64,000 bases of DNA from an uncultured Acidobacteriota bacterium (GTDB lineage Bacteria > Acidobacteriota > UBA6911), in the NCBI GenBank assembly GCA_963843575.1, contig CAWJKZ010000021.1, forward strand, positions 158,962 to 222,961, written 5' to 3'. Of the stretch, positions 27,296 to 35,469 are shown piece by piece. Numbering within the stretch: position 1 is the first letter of the stretch; each line of letters starts with the position of its first letter. Made by a program: the position numbers and the translations under genes. Under the pieces are notes generated by a model. The model worked only from the letters and a program-made list of their open reading frames with translations. It made no database searches and was not told the DNA's origin.

Positions 27296-28756
27296 CTACT
27301 GCGACCCTGGCGGGCGCGCTTTTGCCTGCTTCAAGGCGGCGGCCTCGGGCCGGGTCCGATAAAAATCGTCCAGGGGGAAACAGCCCGACGGCAGGCCGTT
27401 GCGCGGTGCGGTCGTGCAGTCGCTGAAGGTGCGGCAGAGCTTCTCCCGGGCAACGGGCCGTCCCGCGAGCGTGTCGGCCGGCAGCTCCGGGTAGGAGAGC
27501 ATCATCCTGCCGAGCCCGGCAAAGTCCATTCGCCCTTCCCGAACGCACACCTGTGCGACGTGGGGCAGGTATTCCTGCAGGTAGGTAAAACCCGAGCCGA
27601 CAATCAAGATGCCGGGGTACGCGCGCTTCAGGTGGGCGGCGGCCGACAGCTGCATGGCTACTGCTACAAGGGGGTCTTCGGGTGGATCGTATCCGTCCGA
27701 AGGAGGGAACAGGGCCGGCCTCTGGATGTGCGGGTTGTAGTAAGGGCTGCCAGCAGTGACACACACAGAGCGAGATGCCCAGGTCCTTCAGCAACCCGAC
27801 AAACTCCACGGTCTCGCCGAGGTCCGGGCGTCGTCGGGCGCCGGGGATCGCAGCCGAAGGCGAACCGATAGGGGCCCTCCCATGGCTCGGGTTCCCCGTC
27901 CCCGTTCTGCGCCCGGCGGAACGGGATAGTGTCGAACGCGCTCAGCCGAACCGCCAGTCCCAGCCCCGGTTCCGCGGCCCGCACTCCTGCGACGATTTCC
28001 TTGAGGAAACGCGTGCGGTTTTCCAGCGGTCCACCGAACGGCGCCCGGACGCGAAACGGCGCTCAGAAACTCGTGGCCGAGATATCCGTGGCAGTGCTTA
28101 ATGTCGACGAAATCGAAACCGGCCCGCGCGGCCAGACGTGCGGCACGGACGAAGTCGTCGATGATCCCGCCGGATCTCGCCGTCGGAGAGCACCGGGGCA
28201 GGACGGATCGATCCGGAGACGCGCATCGAGAACGGGGTGGTGGTACAGGATGTGCGGCTCCAGGTCTGTCCTTGCGGTAAGGGCGGCAGTATCGGCCGGA
28301 ATGCGTGAGCTGCAGCCCGACCACGAGATCGTCGCGGCGGCCGGACGCCTCGACGTGGGCCCGGGCCAGTTTCTCGCGCAGGGATTCGAACCGCCCGTAC
28401 GTTGCCGTCGCAGATCCAGAGCTGATTCGGGTTTGCCCTACCCTCCGGCGAGACCGCGACCGCCTCTCCGCCCCACACCAGTTTGGCGCCGCTCCTGCCG
28501 AAGCGCGACCATCGTCGTTCGGTCAGCTCGCTCGGCGCCCCGTCGGCCCCGCCGTCCCAGCCTTCCATCGGCAGGACGCACCAGCGGTTTCCGATGGTGC
28601 GGTTTCCCCAGGAAACCGGCGCCGGCCAGGGCGAGGCGGGCGCCATTGGATTGACGGGCCGTCGACGGGCAGTTCGAGGGTGAGGGCGGCCAGGTGGGCC
28701 CGGAATTCGTCCACGGTCTTCAGCGAGGCGATGCGGGTGTAACGTCGTTGGGTCAC
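27296..28756 (-). CDS. NADH:flavin oxidoreductase, Old Yellow Enzyme family (frameshifted)
   Basis: [52 protein letters not shown]-terminal CRTFSDC..C. Confidence 0.82.
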
Positions 28757-29509
28757 GGGAGTGCGCCCTGGGCTCGAAGGATCGTCCGGATAGTGTCGCC
28801 GTACTCGGCGATCCGCGCGGTCATCGACTTGTGCATACGCCTGGGACGCGGGAGATCGACGACGAGTACGTGGCGCACGCGGGCGGGCGGTTCCGACAGC
28901 ACCGCCACGCGGTCGCCCAGCTGGACCGCTTCGACGATGTCGGTCGTCGCCAGGATGGCGGCGAAGCGCTCGTTCATCCACAGGCGCTGCACGTCCATCC
29001 AGAGATGTTCCCGGGCGAGCGGGTCCAGCCCGCGGAACGGGTCGTCGAGCAGCACCAGTCCGGGTTTGTGGATCAGGGCGCGGCACAGCGCCACCCGGCG
29101 CGCGATCTCCGGCGGCAGCGACGCGGGCATGGACGTCGGCGTAATCCGCCGCCCCCGAGCAAGCCCGAGCAGAAGGCGCGCGCGCTCCCTCGCGGGAACC
29201 GGCGCCAGTCGCCGCACTTCGGCGCCCAGCAGGATATTCCGCCGCACGCTGCGCCACGGCAACAGCGCCGGCTCGCCCCAGACGTATCCCGGGTCCGTCT
29301 CCCGGGTCTGGACACGGGACGGTTCCGCCGGAGAAGGGCCCGTGGACTGCAGTCCGGCGATCGTGCGCAGCAGCGCAGTCTTGCCGCAGCCGTGCGGCCC
29401 CATCAGAACCAGCAAGTTCGCCCCGGCCGACCTCGAGGACCGTGGCCGCGGGCGGCGCCGCCGCGTCTTCAAGGCGAACAACCCATTCCAGATCGGACTT
29501 GCCTGTCAC
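28753..29509 (-). CDS. ABC transporter ATP-binding-like protein (NitT/TauB type) with degenerate catalytic motifs
   Basis: Walker [43 protein letters not shown]; start approximate, one 5' frameshift. Confidence 0.75.
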
Positions 29510-30959: not shown

Positions 30960-31706
30960 CTATGCCCACGGGCTGAGCACGCGCTCCGCCGCTTTGATGC
31001 AGCCAATGAGGAGGGCTGCAAGTGCCGCGGCGCAAAGGAAGGAGGCAAACAGCAGCGGCGTGTTCATCCTGGTGATCGCCGAGAGCATCAGGTATCCCAG
31101 ACCGGCTTCCGCCTGGACGAACTCGGCCGTGACCGCTGCCGCGACACCTGCAGTAGCCGCCGTCTTCAGCGACCGGCAGAGTGGCGGCAAGACGTAGGGC
31201 ACCATTAGTTTCATGGTCACCTGGGCCGGCGTCGCCCGCAGGGTGTGCATCATCTCCGGCATCTCGGCTGGAATCCGCCGCAAGCCCCTCAGCACCGCCC
31301 CAGCGATGAGTGGGAAGGTAACCAGGGTGACCAGAAAGGCGCGGGGCACCTCGCCATAACCGAACCAGAGCACCAGGACCGGGGCCAGGGCGGCTACCGG
31401 AATCGCATGCCATGCCCCGGTGAATCCGAGCAGCATTCCACTCGCGCGCTGAAAAGAGGCACAGACGAGGCCCGCAGCCAAGGCCAGGGCCAGGGCTGCC
31501 CCGAGGCCGGACAGCCAGGCGGTCGCCGTCGAAAGAAGGTGCTGCAGCAGCTCGGGCGAACTGCGCCACGCCTCGAGGACTATGCGCGACGGGGTGGGGA
31601 GGGTGTCGGGCCTGAGACGCAGAAAACGCCCGGCGAGTTCCCAGGCGATAAACGCAACCGTCCACGAGAGCAGGGTATGGCCGGAATGCGCCTGCGTCCT
31701 GTGCAT
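30960..31706 (-). CDS. ABC transporter permease, SsuC/TauC type
   Basis: LPTPSRIV, IPVAALAPVLVLWFGYG, EAA-like region, AEFVQAEAGLGYLM. Confidence 0.8.
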   Translation of the reverse strand: MHRTQAHSGHTLLSWTVAFIAWELAGRFLRLRPDTLPTPSRIVLEAWRSSPELLQHLLSTATAWLSGLGAALALALAAGLVCASFQRASGMLLGFTGAWHAIPVAALAPVLVLWFGYGEVPRAFLVTLVTFPLIAGAVLRGLRRIPAEMPEMMHTLRATPAQVTMKLMVPYVLPPLCRSLKTAATAGVAAAVTAEFVQAEAGLGYLMLSAITRMNTPLLFASFLCAAALAALLIGCIKAAERVLSPWA

Positions 31707-31923
31707 GTTTTCACGTCCCGGTGTCGGTCGTCCGACCCGCGCCGGAGGCCGATTATCTGAATCCCGCGCAACCAATATACTACTGCCGCCGCGCCGTACA
31801 GGATAAGACTCTTGCCATCCTGCGGCGGGAAATCTTCCCGCCGCACCTGCGAGGCGCGTTTCTCGCGTCGGCCGCAGCACGCCCAACAAGGCAACCCGCA
31901 CCGAGACGAGGTACTTCCAGACC

Positions 31924-32325
31924 CTACCCCATCGTGTTGACGCGCTCCGCGGTGATCTTGTAGATGACCCGCACTTCGCCCGGTGCCCTGTTGGGATACC
32001 GGTCGAGGTTGAGGTACTTTTGGGCCATCCTGTCGATGTGCTGGTCCGCGCCGTCTTCCGTGATGTCCACCACACGCCCTCGGATGCCGAGATACCGATA
32101 CGGGTTGGCAGGATCCATGATCGCGAGGGCCACGTTCGGGTTGTTGCGCATGTTGCGGTCCTTCACGCGCCCCTTGGCCGTGTTGACGATGATGTGCCGG
32201 CCGTCGTAGTCGCACCAGACCGGGCTGACCTGCGGGCTGCCGTCCGGCATGATGGTCGCGAGGTTTGCGAATGCGGGTTTTTGCAGCAGGTCGAGAAAGT
32301 TCTGAGGAATGGTTGCCTGTGACAT
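31924..32325 (-). CDS. PPOX-class F420-dependent oxidoreductase (Rv1155-like)
   Basis: ANLATIMPDGSPQVSPVW, NTAKGRVKDRNMRNNPNVAL, DPANPYRYLGIRG, IDRMAQKYL. Confidence 0.88.
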   Translation of the reverse strand: MSQATIPQNFLDLLQKPAFANLATIMPDGSPQVSPVWCDYDGRHIIVNTAKGRVKDRNMRNNPNVALAIMDPANPYRYLGIRGRVVDITEDGADQHIDRMAQKYLNLDRYPNRAPGEVRVIYKITAERVNTMG

Positions 32326-32394
32326 GATCCCCTCCTCCGGGCGGAGTGCCCGGTGTTTCAACTGCTTCGTCCGTGCGACCCGGCAGCGACGCCG

Positions 32395-33171
32395 CTACCG
32401 AAACAGGTCATCGCCGGCGGGACGGATCAGCTGGCGGCCGGAGCCGTCCGCCGGGTTGTAGTGGAAACCGTCGACGATCGCGACCGGGATAGCCGGAGGC
32501 CTTGCCCATAACCAGTTCGGCCGCGCCGGCCAGTTCGTCGGCTACCGCCAGGAGGGTGGCCGCTGAGGGGGCGGCCGCACCAGTCTACCTGGCCGCGGTA
32601 GTCGATGAAAGGCGAGAGGCCCGCGACGCCGAGCGCCACGTTGGTCAACCCCTGGCGCCAGGGGCGGCCGAACGTGTCCGAGACGATGACCGCGACCTCT
32701 ATCCCCAAGGCGTCCGACGAGACCGCGCTGCAGCTGGCGGGCGGACTCGTCGGGGTCCGCGGGGAGAAGCGTCACGCAGCCTTCGGGCGCGTTGGACGCG
32801 TCCACGCCCGCGTTGGCGCAGATGAACCCGCCGTGAGTCTCGACGATCAGGACCCCGTGGCCCGCTCGCACGATCCGCCGGGATTCGCGCAGCACGATCT
32901 CGACCATACGCGGGTCTTTGCGCAGTTCCGCCGCGAGCGACTCGGCGCGCGCGGACGGCACCACCGAATCGAGCCGGACGATCCTCCCCTCGGCCTTGCT
33001 GACCGCCTTCTGGGCCACAATGAACACGGGACCGGGCCCGTCCGCGAGCGCCGCCCTGCCGGGACCGTTCCTGAAGCCGGAGGGCTGCGACGATCTTCCG
33101 CAGAGGTCGTCGCCGGGGACGATCTCCGGGATGCCGCCGAGCGCCCGAATTGAGATCCTGCCGTTAGGCAC
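32395..33171 (-). CDS. cofE: Coenzyme F420-0:L-glutamate ligase, short CofE without nitroreductase domain (frameshifted)
   Basis: GIPEIVPGDDL, AQKAVSKAEGR, ETHGGFICANAGVDASN, LLPADPD, SDTFGRPWRQG, ends DLFR-stop. Confidence 0.88.
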
Positions 33172-33826
33172 CGAGCGCGATCCTTTCTGCCAGCCCCAGG
33201 GTCGACAGCAGCGCGTAGGTGCGGGTGTCGGAAGGCCGCTGCAGGAATACGCGCACGTCGCCGGCATCGTCCAGGTCCAGGGCCAGTCGCGGGTTTTCGA
33301 CGATGACGGGGGACGAGCCGGCGCGCAGCGCCTCCTGGGTGTGGAGGACGAGGCTGCGGCGCGCCGAAACGCGAAGGGAAGAGGTCCGGCGGGGACCGGA
33401 GTATCGCGTTGGTGCCGGTGCCGTCGAGCGACGGGACCAGGACCGTGCAACCTGGGCCGCCTGCCACTCCTGCCAGGGCCGCGACGTCTTCGGGAAGCAC
33501 GAGCGGCACGTCGGCGGGGATCCGCAGGGAGCGGCAGGCACCCCTCGAGCGACAGCTGCCGGCATGCCGCATCCACCGACGCGCTCTCCGACACCTGCGT
33601 CCGCTCGCAGAAAACCCTCCACCCCAACCGCGCCGCGTGGGCCGACGCGCGTTCGGAATTCGTCACGACGATCGACGGCCATCCGCGTCTGCGCCAGCGC
33701 CGCGGAGACATCCTCGAACATCGCCCACCACAGCGCCTCCCGTTCTGGCGGCCGGAGTACGTGGGCGAGCCGGAGCTTGGCGGCGGCAGGTGCCTTGACG
33801 GGGAGGATCACGGCCTCGCGGTTCAC
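33164..33826 (-). CDS. cofC: Phospholactate/PEP guanylyltransferase CofC/FbiD (frameshifted)
   Basis: ILPVKAPAAAKLRLAHVL..EREAL..AMFEDV, ADVPL, PSLDGTGTNAIL, RFG, LALDLDDAGD. Confidence 0.85.
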   Translation of the reverse strand: MNREAVILPVKAPAAAKLRLAHVLRPPEREALWWAMFEDVSAALAQTRMAVDRRDEFRTRVGPRGAVGVEGFLRADAGVGERVGGCGMPAAVARGVPAAPCGSPPTCRSCFPKTSRPWQEWQAAQVARSWSRRSTAPAPTRYSGPRRTSSLRVSARRSLVLHTQEALRAGSSPVIVENPRLALDLDDAGDVRVFLQRPSDTRTYALLSTLGLAERIALGA

Positions 33827-34755
33827 GGGATCATCTCCAGCAGCCGGCGGGCGAGCGCGACCCGGGCCGGCGGGTCGTCCATCAGGAGCGGCGCCGGACG
33901 CGGGGAAATACCGAGGCTGGCAACCCGGGCGCACTGGTCGCCGTCGAGTGCGTCGAGCAGAAAGATGTCGACGAAATCCCGGTACAGCGCGGCCACGCCG
34001 GCGGCCGAGACGTCGTGGCCCAGTTGCCGGAGCATCTCGGCCGTGGGGCCTTTCACGGCCCGCCCCGCGATGACGGGGCTGACGGCAAGCACGGGATGTC
34101 GTGGCTTTCACTAGCGCCTCCCGGATCCCGGGCACGGCCAGGATGGGCCCGATGCTGACGAACGGGTTGCTCGGGCAGACGATCACGGCGTCGGCCTGCG
34201 CGATGGCGTCGAGGACGCCGCCGGCCGGCTGCGAGACGTCGGCGCCCAGGTAGGTGAAGCCGTACTACGCGCGGTGCGCAGCGTCTCGCGACGAAATATT
34301 CCTGGAAGGGAAGATCGCCCTCGGCGGTGTGGACGAGGGTGGGCACCGGGCTGTCCGTCATCGGCAGATACGCGGCTCCGGACCCCTCTCCGGCGGCACA
34401 GGGCGTCCGTCGCCCTCGAGAGGTTGGTGCCGCCAGACAGGAGGGAAGTCCGGTAGACGTGGGTAGCCAGGTCGCGGTCCCCGATCCGGAACCATCGCCG
34501 GCCCGCCCAGGCGCCCCATCTCGTCGAGCATGGCGAAAGTGTCGCCCTGGACTCCCCCAGCCGGTGTCCGCGTTGGCACGGCCCGCAAGCGTGTAGATGA
34601 TCGTGTCGATGTCCGGGCAGACCCGGAGGCCCATCCAGTCGAAGTCGTCTCCCGTGTTGACGATCACGGTCAGGTCTTCGGGCGGCAGCGACTTCGACCA
34701 GCCCCGACACAAGCCTGGCGGCGCCGACCCCGCCGGCGAGAGCTGTGATCTTCAT
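33823..34755 (-). CDS. cofD: 2-phospho-L-lactate transferase CofD/FbiA (frameshifted)
   Basis: ALAGGVGAAR, IVNTGDD, VCPDIDT, IGDRDLATH, FQEYFV, CPSNPFVSIGPIL, SPVIAGRAVKGPTA. Confidence 0.9.
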
Positions 34756-34809
34756 CCTCGGCTCCGCGCACCCCCCGCCGCAGGCGGGAAGCGCTTCTCA
34801 GCATGCAGG

Positions 34810-35469
34810 CTACAGGCCCTCGATCCGGAAGCGCGCTCCCCTGCGCTTGTAGCGGCGATTGAGGGAGATGGCCAGGAAACGTCATGCGCTCCAGGGCCCG
34901 TGCCATCGCCAGGGGCCCGGCGTCAAGCGGCCGCAGGTGCGGGATCAGGGCCGCCGTCTCCATGACGCTGTCGCGCGCCGTCTTCGTATCGCCGCATACA
35001 AACACGTCGCAGCGCAGTTCGGTCCCGAGCTCCGCGAGCGCGTGCGCCGGTATGGTCTTGAAGGCGCACACCAGGGCCACACCTTCGGGGACGTGCCGTG
35101 CGATCCAGTTCCGCGTTCGAGCCCGATTCCTGCTCGACGAAGACGGGCCCCCCTGCCGTGAAGTCGATCGGTACGGTCACGTCGACCACGATCTGACCCG
35201 GTCGGAAATCGGCGCGGCAGGATTCCAGGGCCTCGACCGCGCCCGCGTACGGAACGGTGAGAAAGACGAGGTCGCACCGCGCCAGCATTTCAGCGTTGCC
35301 GCAGCCCTCGACCGCCTTTGCGCCGAAGCGTCGAGTTGCAGCCGTCGGCAGCGAGGCGGGCGCGCTCCGCCAAGCGGGACCCCAACACGACCGGGACCCC
35401 CGCCGCGGCGAAACGCAGCGCCAGGCCCTTGCCTTCTACCCCGGTCCCACCCAGAAAACCGATTTCCAT
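34810..35469 (-). CDS. fno: NADPH-dependent F420 reductase (frameshifted)
   Basis: MEIGFLGGTGVEGKGLALRFA..G..V.LGSR, LTVPY, VVDVTVP, AFKTIPAH, DAGPLAMARALE; directly upstream of cofD. Confidence 0.8.

What the first reader, a model, noticed from the sequence alone, without database searches (positions are those of the whole stretch)
31924..35469. Coenzyme F420 maturation and use cluster in a probable Acidobacterium, without FO synthase in view
Seen: same-strand fno-cofD-cofC-cofE with overlapping or abutting ends, followed by a PPOX-class F420 enzyme; cofG/cofH/fbiC are absent from the window. Known: CofC, CofD and CofE convert FO to F420-n; F420 is best studied in archaea and Actinobacteria. 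Inference: this lineage makes F420 using an unlinked FO synthase or salvages FO from the community.
Basis: partly seen in the sequence, partly recalled or inferred. Interest (0 to 1): 0.6.

Follow-up and report, generated by a model that had tools for sequence, protein, structure and literature searches.

The report
F420 operon shredded by assembly errors
This soil Acidobacteriota genome carries an ordinary operon for finishing, recharging and using the redox cofactor F420; the genes for the cofactor's core lie on another contig, and the fifteen frameshifts that break the operon in the deposited sequence are almost certainly long-read assembly errors.

Summary
The gene order fno-cofD-cofC-cofE-PPOX is real and lies on the minus strand at 35469-31924. 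As deposited, the four biosynthesis genes are not open frames.

The breaks look technical.
- The same +1 signature occurs about 1650 times across the genome, in patches, and it also breaks rpoB and rpoC.
- With the extra bases removed, all four genes read through with no stop codon. They are 80-82% identical to intact same-genus orthologues, with dN/dS of 0.15-0.25.
- The nearest relative is a Nanopore-only Microflora Danica MAG. It differs from a second MAG that is 99.8% identical to it by such indels.

FO synthase is not missing. Intact cofG and cofH, both above the curated cut-offs, sit together on contig C10, in a stretch syntenic with the sister genome. The organism therefore encodes F420 synthesis from FO onward, and FO salvage is not needed here.

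Record titles of the nearest relatives say Acidobacteriota. F420 genes in that phylum are already in the literature, so this is an ordinary new member.

One side lead: eight cofD-bearing relatives lack FO synthase, and three of them carry an ABC permease/ATPase pair right after the operon. Other follow-ups in this scan have noted FO-salvage candidates in other phyla.

The parts
34810..35469 (-). fno (npdG), the NADPH-dependent F420 reductase. It is broken by three +1 insertions near 35329, 35104 and 34875.
   Evidence: Three-frame translation, blastn against G001 and Viterbi frames. The G001 orthologue scores 195.1 bits on TIGR01915 (cut-off 149.8). After correction it shows 81.7% protein identity, dN/dS 0.149 and no stop codon.
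33823..34755 (-). cofD (2-phospho-L-lactate transferase family, FbiA-like). It is broken by six +1 shifts near 34689, 34553, 34495, 34368, 34263 and about 34100.
   Evidence: Pfam CofD fragments appear in three frames. The G001 orthologue scores 310 bits on TIGR01819 (cut-off 257.45). After correction it shows 80.0% protein identity, dN/dS 0.249 and no stop codon.
33164..33826 (-). cofC (guanylyltransferase, FbiD-like). Its GTG start overlaps the cofD stop as GTGA. It is broken by three +1 shifts near 33672, 33533 and 33360.
   Evidence: The G001 orthologue scores 126.2 bits on TIGR03552 (cut-off 105). It shows dN/dS 0.224 and no stop codon. It has Gly at the diagnostic 3-PG site (RFG motif).
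32395..33267 (-). cofE, a single-domain F420-0:gamma-glutamyl ligase with no FbiB nitroreductase domain. The start codon is uncertain. It is broken by three +1 shifts near 32717, 32562 and 32491.
   Evidence: Partial Pfam F420_ligase hit. The G001 orthologue scores 270.6 bits on TIGR01916 (cut-off 180.65). It shows dN/dS 0.227 and no stop codon.
31924..32361 (-). PPOX-class (FDOR-B) F420-dependent oxidoreductase. The ORF is intact at 145 aa.
   Evidence: TIGR03618 at 118.3 bits (cut-off 79.05) and Pfam PNPOx_N at 69.1 bits. There is no indel against G001, and dN/dS is 0.115.
30960..31691 (-). ABC transporter permease (BPD_transp_1, SaoP/SsuC-like) directly downstream of PPOX. It may be co-transcribed with the operon. 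Its substrate is unknown.
   Evidence: Pfam PF00528 at 75.2 bits. The best NCBIfam matches are SaoP and SsuC, both below their cut-offs. A homologous permease plus ATPase follows PPOX in G004, G010 and G017.

Best explanation
This is a functional F420 'tail and recycling' operon of an uncultured soil Acidobacteriota bacterium.
- CofC activates a three-carbon acid with GTP. Its diagnostic residue marks it as the 2-phospholactate or PEP type, not the 3-phosphoglycerate type.
- CofD joins that product to the deazaflavin FO.
- The single-domain CofE adds the glutamate tail.
- Fno recharges F420 with NADPH.
- The PPOX-class enzyme uses F420H2.
- FO itself is made by a separate cofG-cofH pair on another contig.

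The organism therefore encodes F420 synthesis from FO onward. Only the source of the three-carbon side chain is unresolved.

The 15 frameshifts in the deposited sequence are consensus errors of a long-read metagenome assembly, not gene decay.

Shown: gene identities, gene order, presence of cofG and cofH, and the genome-wide error signature.

Inferred: that the real genes are intact, that they are co-transcribed, and that F420 is actually made.
For: Gene identity and order:
- The orthologous locus in same-genus G001 and same-family G004 is intact, in the same order.
- The G001 proteins pass the curated cut-offs for npdG, cofD, cofC, cofE and TIGR03618.

The frameshifts are technical:
- All 15 are +1 insertions.
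- About 2100 frameshift-like events occur genome-wide and 1650 of them are +1. They cluster in 55 patches of at least 6 events.
- The essential genes rpoB and rpoC carry about 15 such events; rpoB is found in 7 pieces.
- After the extra bases are removed, the four genes have no in-frame stop, 80-82% protein identity to G001 and dN/dS of 0.15-0.25.
- G001 is a Microflora Danica MAG. That project's MAGs are Nanopore-only, assembled with Flye and polished with one round of Medaka (PMC12313526).
- G001 and a second Microflora Danica MAG that is 99.8% identical to it differ by 1-2-base indels, one of which breaks the fno frame.
- The window's genome is only 88% complete by marker genes, although it has just 27 contigs.

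FO synthase:
- cofG scores 427 bits (cut-off 213.35) and cofH 474.5 bits (cut-off 374.1). They are adjacent on C10 with no frameshift.
- That region aligns to G001 at 84.3% identity without gaps, with syntenic flanks.

F420 users: one LLM of the F420 class (TIGR03559, 432.7 bits, cut-off 335), in addition to the PPOX enzyme.
Against: - No reads and no independent assembly of the same species were available. The best PPOX match in the metagenome collection is 76% identical, so the intact state of the genes is inferred and not seen.
- This operon is among the denser error patches: 15 shifts in about 3 kb (9-10 per 3-kb window by the Viterbi scan), where 62% of 3-kb windows across the genome have none.
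- No clear dehydro-F420-0 reductase was found. The best FbiE/FbiB C-terminal-domain match scores 58.9 bits against a cut-off of 249.55. If CofC uses PEP, one step is unassigned.
- The set of F420 users is small: no FDOR-A and only one LLM.
- F420 production has not been measured in any acidobacterium that I could find.
Confidence: 0.85

Rival explanations
1. The frameshifts are real. The lineage is losing F420 biosynthesis, and the four genes are fresh pseudogenes, while the PPOX gene and cofG/cofH are still intact.
For: The operon is one of the densest frameshift patches in the genome. The patch borders nearly coincide with the four genes, and both PPOX and the upstream neighbours are clean. 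Half of the cofD-bearing near relatives lack FO synthase, so the pathway is evolutionarily labile in this family.
Against: Fifteen insertions occur with no deletion and no nonsense mutation. dN/dS is 0.15-0.25, similar to the intact PPOX gene at 0.115. The same +1 signature breaks rpoB and rpoC and forms 54 other patches. Bacterial gene decay is usually biased towards deletions (general knowledge).
Confidence: 0.06
2. This organism salvages FO from its community. The cofG-cofH contig would then be mis-binned, or would serve only a photolyase antenna.
For: The operon is unlinked to FO synthase, and a permease gene follows it. Relatives that lack cofG and cofH keep the same operon. MAG contamination is estimated at 3.3%.
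Against: cofG-cofH lies on a 646-kb contig with the same GC content. It is syntenic with the sister genome at the divergence seen across the window, 84% against 80-86%. G001, G003, G009 and G011 of the same family also have cofG on contigs other than the one with cofD.
Confidence: 0.04
3. The +1 sites are read through in vivo by programmed frameshifting, quadruplet decoding or transcript editing.
For: All shifts go in the same direction, and the corrected reading is under purifying selection.
Against: The 44 precisely placed insertion sites in the window share no sequence motif, and 31 of them are not next to an identical base. Two MAGs that are 99.8% identical differ at such sites. The sites are patchy, and 71% of 2-kb windows have none.
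Confidence: 0.01

Closest known systems
Cof-type bacterial F420 pathway: separate CofG and CofH, CofC, CofD, single-domain CofE and Fno. It is described for Proteobacteria and Chloroflexi and predicted for Acidobacteria (Ney et al. 2017, as summarised in Grinter & Greening 2021, PMC8498797).
   Same: The enzyme set is the same. cofG and cofH are split, not fused as FbiC. CofE lacks the nitroreductase domain. Fno is the only recognised F420-reducing dehydrogenase. The user enzymes belong to the FDOR-B and LLM classes.
   Different: The FO synthase is on another contig, whereas in most of the cofD-bearing Acidobacteriota sampled cofG lies within a few kb of cofD. A PPOX gene and an ABC permease are appended to the operon.
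Mycobacterial FbiC/FbiD/FbiA/FbiB pathway, which starts from PEP, passes through dehydro-F420-0 and reduces it with the FbiB C-terminal domain. Thermomicrobium roseum uses a stand-alone FbiE for that reduction (Bashiri 2019; Braga 2020, via PMC8498797).
   Same: CofC and CofD are homologous. CofC has Gly and Thr at the positions that mark 2-PL/PEP-type enzymes.
   Different: There are no fused FbiC or FbiB proteins. No FbiE reaches the cut-off; the best match is 58.9 bits against 249.55, from a generic 190-aa nitroreductase about 32 kb away.
3PG-F420 pathway of Mycetohabitans (CofC structure 7P97; Hasan et al. 2022, PMC8764529).
   Same: 7P97 is the closest solved CofC by sequence (59.9 bits). 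A single-domain CofE is used there as well.
   Different: The diagnostic Ser162 is Gly here, and His145 is Thr. 3PG-F420 is therefore not predicted.
Residual indel errors in Nanopore-only metagenome assemblies, such as the Flye plus one-round Medaka pipeline of Microflora Danica (PMC12313526). Indel-driven gene fragmentation is also discussed in PMC9262707.
   Same: Single-base indels break conserved genes, including essential ones. Marker-gene completeness is low despite few contigs. The nearest relative comes from that project.
   Different: Here the errors are mostly insertions outside homopolymers and are strongly patchy. The classic homopolymer-deletion picture does not explain this. The cause of the patches could not be tested without reads.

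Membership tests
CofD / FbiA (TIGR01819, PF01933) | Full-length match above the curated cut-off | tested here: inconclusive
   The window's own sequence gives only fragments in three frames and no match at E<=1e-20. The orthologue in G001 is 80% identical after frame correction and scores 310 bits against a cut-off of 257.45.
CofC / FbiD (TIGR03552) | Full-length match above the cut-off, and the type of substrate-site residues | tested here: inconclusive
   The window copy is frameshifted. The G001 orthologue scores 126.2 bits against a cut-off of 105. Gly sits at the S162/G163 site and Thr at the H145/T148 site. This indicates the 2-PL/PEP type; the choice between 2-PL and PEP cannot be read from sequence.
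CofE (TIGR01916), single-domain | Match above the cut-off and no FbiB C-terminal nitroreductase domain | tested here: met
   The G001 orthologue scores 270.6 bits against 180.65. It matches only positions 8-243 of the 449-position FbiB model. In the window, cofE ends at 32395 and the PPOX gene starts at 32361, which leaves no room for a second domain.
Fno / NpdG (TIGR01915) | Equivalog match above the cut-off | tested here: inconclusive
   The window copy lies in four frame segments. The G001 orthologue scores 195.1 bits against 149.8.
PPOX-class F420-dependent oxidoreductase (TIGR03618, FDOR-B) | Match above the curated cut-off on an intact ORF | tested here: met
   The window ORF 31924-32361 scores 118.3 bits against 79.05. 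F420 binding itself was not tested.
FO synthase CofG + CofH (TIGR03550, TIGR03551) | Both subunits above the cut-off in the same genome | tested here: met
   They lie at G000:C10:178230-180456. cofG scores 427 bits against 213.35 and cofH 474.5 bits against 374.1. Both frames are intact. The region is syntenic with G001.
Dehydro-F420-0 reductase FbiE / FbiB C-terminal domain (TIGR03553) | Match above the cut-off | tested here: not met
   The best match is 58.9 bits against a cut-off of 249.55, at C21:226476-227048. The genome is 88% complete, so absence is not proven.
F420-0 ABC transporter cassette (TIGR03868, TIGR03869, TIGR03873) | The permease or ATPase next to the operon matches these models | tested here: not met
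   The best NCBIfam matches of the permease and the ATPase are SaoP/SsuC and SaoA/SsuB-like, all below their cut-offs. No TIGR03868 or TIGR03869 appears in the lists.

The most novel reading that the evidence does not exclude
This reading concerns sister lineages, not this genome. Eight cofD-bearing Acidobacteriota genomes have no CofG and, where it was tested, no CofH above the cut-off. They are G004, G007, G008, G010, G017, G023, G045 and G076, and they are 85-100% complete. These lineages would be FO auxotrophs that scavenge the deazaflavin core from neighbours.

The SaoP-like ABC permease/ATPase pair could be the uptake system. It follows the operon directly in G004, G010 and G017, and it survives beside the operon in this genome. 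No FO importer has been characterised, as far as I know.
Probability: 0.15. Interest if true: 0.55.

Novelty: new member of a known kind. Interest (0 to 1): 0.18.

Why it matters
For this genome the result is mainly a correction. The F420 pathway from FO onward is encoded, so no salvage story is needed. The apparent gene damage is a data-quality problem. It would make automatic annotation call four pseudogenes and miss F420 metabolism in this and in similar long-read MAGs.

The result adds one more uncultured Acidobacteriota lineage to the predicted F420 producers. No member of that phylum has been tested for the cofactor in anything I found (review PMC8498797).

The only forward-looking value is the side observation. 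Within the same family, the operon persists in genomes without FO synthase, next to an ABC transporter. That makes deazaflavin cross-feeding in soil testable.

Tried and rejected
- A fixed-window codon-score scan for frameshifts was too insensitive. A 7-state codon-usage Viterbi replaced it and reproduced the blastn-placed shifts.
- I looked for a shared motif at 44 precisely placed insertion sites and found none.
- I tested whether methylation-type GATC sites are enriched at insertion sites. The count was 5 of 44 against 3.7 expected, P = 0.32, so this was rejected.
- I asked whether GC content explains the patches. The effect is weak: mean GC is 0.661 in dense windows against 0.638 in clean ones, and Spearman rho is 0.14.
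- I searched for an independent assembly of the same species, to see the intact genes directly. The best PPOX match in metagenome contigs is 76% identical. In genome contigs only the sister species appears.
- I considered whether the PPOX enzyme is a fixed part of F420 biosynthesis, for example a substitute dehydro-F420 reductase. Only 20 of 80 PPOX loci from other genomes have cof genes within 5 kb. It looks like an ordinary F420 user, and I did not pursue the idea.
- I looked for an FbiE candidate and found only a generic nitroreductase, far below the cut-off.
- Ney et al. 2017 is not in the searchable library, so I cite its content through the 2021 review.
Full report
**What is in the sequence**

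The finding spans 31924-35469. On the minus strand this runs exactly from the ATG of an fno-like gene (35469) to the stop of a PPOX-like gene (31924).

Pfam on the longest ORFs gave one clean hit, the PPOX ORF (31924-32361, PNPOx_N, 69 bits). Otherwise it gave only fragments: pieces of CofD in three different ORFs, 45 residues of CofC, and 140 residues of F420_ligase.

A three-frame translation shows why. Each of the four biosynthesis genes hops between frames. For example, MKITALAGGVGAARL (cofD) begins in one frame, continues as TVIVNTGDDFDW in the next, and so on.

From that translation the gene limits are:
- fno 34810-35469
- cofD 33823-34755
- cofC 33164-33826, whose GTG start overlaps the cofD TGA stop
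- cofE 32395 to about 33267
- PPOX 31924-32361

Yes. The window is G000:C21:158962-222961. The same-genus genome G001 has the same locus at 81% DNA identity, with five intact ORFs. The same-family genome G004 also has it intact.

The G001 proteins pass the curated NCBIfam cut-offs:

| Gene | Model | Bits | Cut-off |
|---|---|---|---|
| npdG/Fno | TIGR01915 | 195.1 | 149.8 |
| cofD | TIGR01819 | 310 | 257.45 |
| cofC | TIGR03552 | 126.2 | 105 |
| cofE | TIGR01916 | 270.6 | 180.65 |
| PPOX | TIGR03618 | 110.2 | 79.05 |

The window's own PPOX scores 118.3 bits.

CofE is single-domain. It matches only the N-terminal half of the FbiB model, and in the window the PPOX gene starts 34 nt after the cofE stop.

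**The frameshifts**

A blastn alignment of the window against G001 shows isolated one-base insertions in the window between 35329 and 32491. There are none in the PPOX gene, and none across 1.3 kb of the upstream flank.

I trained a 7-state codon-usage Viterbi on this genome's long ORFs. It found the same switch points independently, and every switch goes in the +1 direction.

Net count of uncompensated +1 shifts:

| Gene | Shifts | Approximate positions |
|---|---|---|
| fno | 3 | 35329, 35104, 34875 |
| cofD | 6 | 34689, 34553, 34495, 34368, 34263, about 34100 |
| cofC | 3 | 33672, 33533, 33360 |
| cofE | 3 | 32717, 32562, 32491 |

That is 15 in about 3 kb. Two or three nearby +1/-1 pairs are compensated and may be alignment noise.

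**Decay or artefact?**

Four lines of evidence point to artefact.

1. The signature is genome-wide.
   - The Viterbi finds about 2100 frameshift-like switches, meaning a frame change on the same strand with no stop codon of the upstream frame nearby.
   - 1650 of them are +1.
   - They are strongly clumped. 62% of 3-kb windows have none, and 55 patches hold 6 or more.
   - The F420 operon is one such patch, and so is 27.3-28.8 kb in this window.

2. Essential genes are hit.
   - rpoB comes back in seven pieces in different frames.
   - The rpoB-rpoC stretch carries about 15 events.

3. Nothing else about the four genes looks decayed.
   - With the extra bases skipped there is no in-frame stop.
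   - Protein identity to G001 is 80-82%.
   - dN/dS is 0.15-0.25, against 0.115 for the intact PPOX gene.

4. The provenance fits.
   - G001 is 'uncultured Acidobacteriota bacterium isolate MFD00905.bin.2.153'.
   - MFD stands for Microflora Danica. [quoted passage not shown]
   - Where the window and G001 differ by isolated single bases, 44 are extra bases in the window and 21 are extra bases in G001. Both sets occur in runs.
   - G001 and a second Microflora Danica MAG that is 99.8% identical to it differ by four small indels in 7.5 kb, one of which breaks the fno frame.
   - The window's own genome scores only 88% complete although it has just 27 contigs.

I could not see reads, and I found no second assembly of this species; the best match is 76% identical. 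The intact state of the genes is therefore an inference, which I hold at about 0.9.

The insertion sites share no motif, and 31 of 44 are not next to an identical base. GATC is not enriched at them. The patches are only slightly richer in GC. The cause of the patchiness is unexplained; low local coverage or strain mixing are guesses.

Other follow-ups in this scan have described the same kind of insertion patches in long-read MAGs. That is agreement among AI notes, not independent evidence.

**FO synthase**

No cofG or cofH match lies on the 405-kb contig with the window. Contig C10 carries an adjacent pair. cofG (390 aa) scores 427 bits against a cut-off of 213.35, and cofH (422 aa) scores 474.5 bits against 374.1. 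Neither has a frameshift.

A third, weaker cofH-like gene on C19 scores 244.5 bits. Its family was not checked; the real CofH itself scores 342 bits on the MqnC model, so cross-matching between these radical-SAM families is strong.

The cofG-cofH stretch aligns to G001 at 84.3% identity without a gap, and the flanks are syntenic. It therefore belongs to this lineage and is not a binning stray.

**The rest of the pathway**

At the site that decides 3-phosphoglycerate use (Ser162 in the Mycetohabitans enzyme, Gly163 in M. tuberculosis FbiD; PMC8764529), this CofC has Gly within an RFG motif. It has Thr at the His145/Thr148 site. Classical F420 is therefore predicted, not 3PG-F420.

Sequence cannot tell whether the side chain comes from 2-phospholactate or from PEP. 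If it comes from PEP, a dehydro-F420-0 reductase is needed. No FbiE reaches the cut-off. The best candidate is a generic 190-aa nitroreductase at C21:226476-227048, with 58.9 bits against 249.55.

Recognisable F420 users are few:
- the operon's PPOX enzyme
- one LLM of the F420 class on C13 (TIGR03559, 432.7 bits against 335)
- three weak PPOX-like hits
- no FDOR-A (that search also found nothing in any control genome, so it is weak evidence)

**Neighbours**

Downstream of PPOX on the same strand lies an ABC permease (30960-31691). An MFS transporter gene follows on the other strand, and then an ABC ATPase (28753-29481). Upstream, and divergent, are a methyltransferase, MsrB, a DUF7790 protein and an HDOD-GGDEF protein. 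None of these is F420-specific.

**Taxonomy and novelty**

Record titles of the relatives read as follows:
- same genus (G001): Acidobacteriota
- same family (G003): Acidobacteriota
- other close PPOX hits: Acidobacteriota/Acidobacteria, Vicinamibacterales, Blastocatellia and Terriglobia

One MAG that is 99.8% identical to G001 is labelled Alphaproteobacteria, which looks like a labelling error.

The 2021 review states that F420 biosynthesis genes are encoded in multiple genomes of Acidobacteria, and that no experimental work exists outside Actinobacteria (PMC8498797).

In my own sample of 200 Acidobacteriota genomes at least 90% complete, 20 have cofD above the cut-off. Sixteen of those also have cofG, often within a few kb of cofD. 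This locus is a new member of a known kind.

**Side lead**

Among 30 near relatives, 12 have cofD and 6 of those have no cofG: G004, G007, G008, G010, G017 and G023. Their best cofG scores are 38-49 bits against 213. For the five tested for cofH, the best scores are 256-344 bits against 374, probably from menaquinone-pathway (MqnC/MqnE) paralogues.

Two more such genomes appear in the phylum sample, G045 and G076. G045 has withheld bases.

In G004, G010 and G017 the operon is followed at once by a permease/ATPase pair homologous to the one in this window. The operon-bearing, cofG-positive genomes G001 and G003 have no such pair next to the operon. The pair is SaoP/SsuC-like and does not match the proposed F420-0 transporter cassette. 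No binding-protein gene is adjacent in G017.

The sample is tiny and the genomes are related. This is a lead for FO cross-feeding and nothing more. The scan has noted FO-salvage candidates in other phyla.

**Verdict**

The locus is a real but ordinary F420 operon. Its damage is technical, the organism has its own FO synthase, and interest is low.

Noticed in passing
whole genome G000; for example C24:252860-261400 (rpoB-rpoC), C23:66804-73083, C13:35004-37431; in the window 27325-28758 and scattered across 8-30 kb: About 2100 frameshift-like events, 1650 of them +1, clumped in 55 patches of 6 or more. Essential genes are broken too. Any gene call or pseudogene call in this assembly needs frame-aware checking.
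   Followed up: yes
relatives G004, G007, G008, G010, G017, G023, G045, G076 (loci L013, L015, L017): These Acidobacteriota genomes have cofD above the cut-off (the operon order was verified in G004, G010 and G017) but have no cofG, and where tested no cofH, above the cut-off. In G004, G010 and G017 an ABC permease/ATPase pair follows PPOX directly. They are candidate FO auxotrophs with a candidate importer.
   Followed up: partly
L032 (CAVONR010000017.1) versus L031 (CAVZBT010000012.1): Two Microflora Danica MAGs are 99.8% identical over 7.5 kb, but one is titled Alphaproteobacteria and the other Acidobacteriota. One taxonomic label is probably wrong. They differ by four 1-2-base indels.
   Followed up: partly
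G000:C21:226476-227048 (L111:1486-2058), about 3.5 kb beyond the window's end: A 190-aa nitroreductase-family protein aligns along the whole FbiB C-terminal model but scores only 58.9 bits (cut-off 249.55). It is the only, and weak, candidate for a dehydro-F420-0 reductase.
   Followed up: partly
G071, G131, G177 (phylum sample) and G020: These Acidobacteriota genomes have cofG above the cut-off but no cofD. G071 and G131 carry it in long open frames of 868 and 847 aa, like a fused FbiC. They are FO-only producers, perhaps making FO for a photolyase antenna.
   Followed up: no
G000:C12:42306-43417: The YvcK-like member of the CofD superfamily is split between two frames. This is another example of the assembly's frameshifts.
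   Followed up: no
window 31726-31924 versus G001: In G001 about 8.5 kb is inserted between PPOX and the ABC permease; the window has the two adjacent. The link between the permease and the operon is therefore not fixed within the genus.
   Followed up: no
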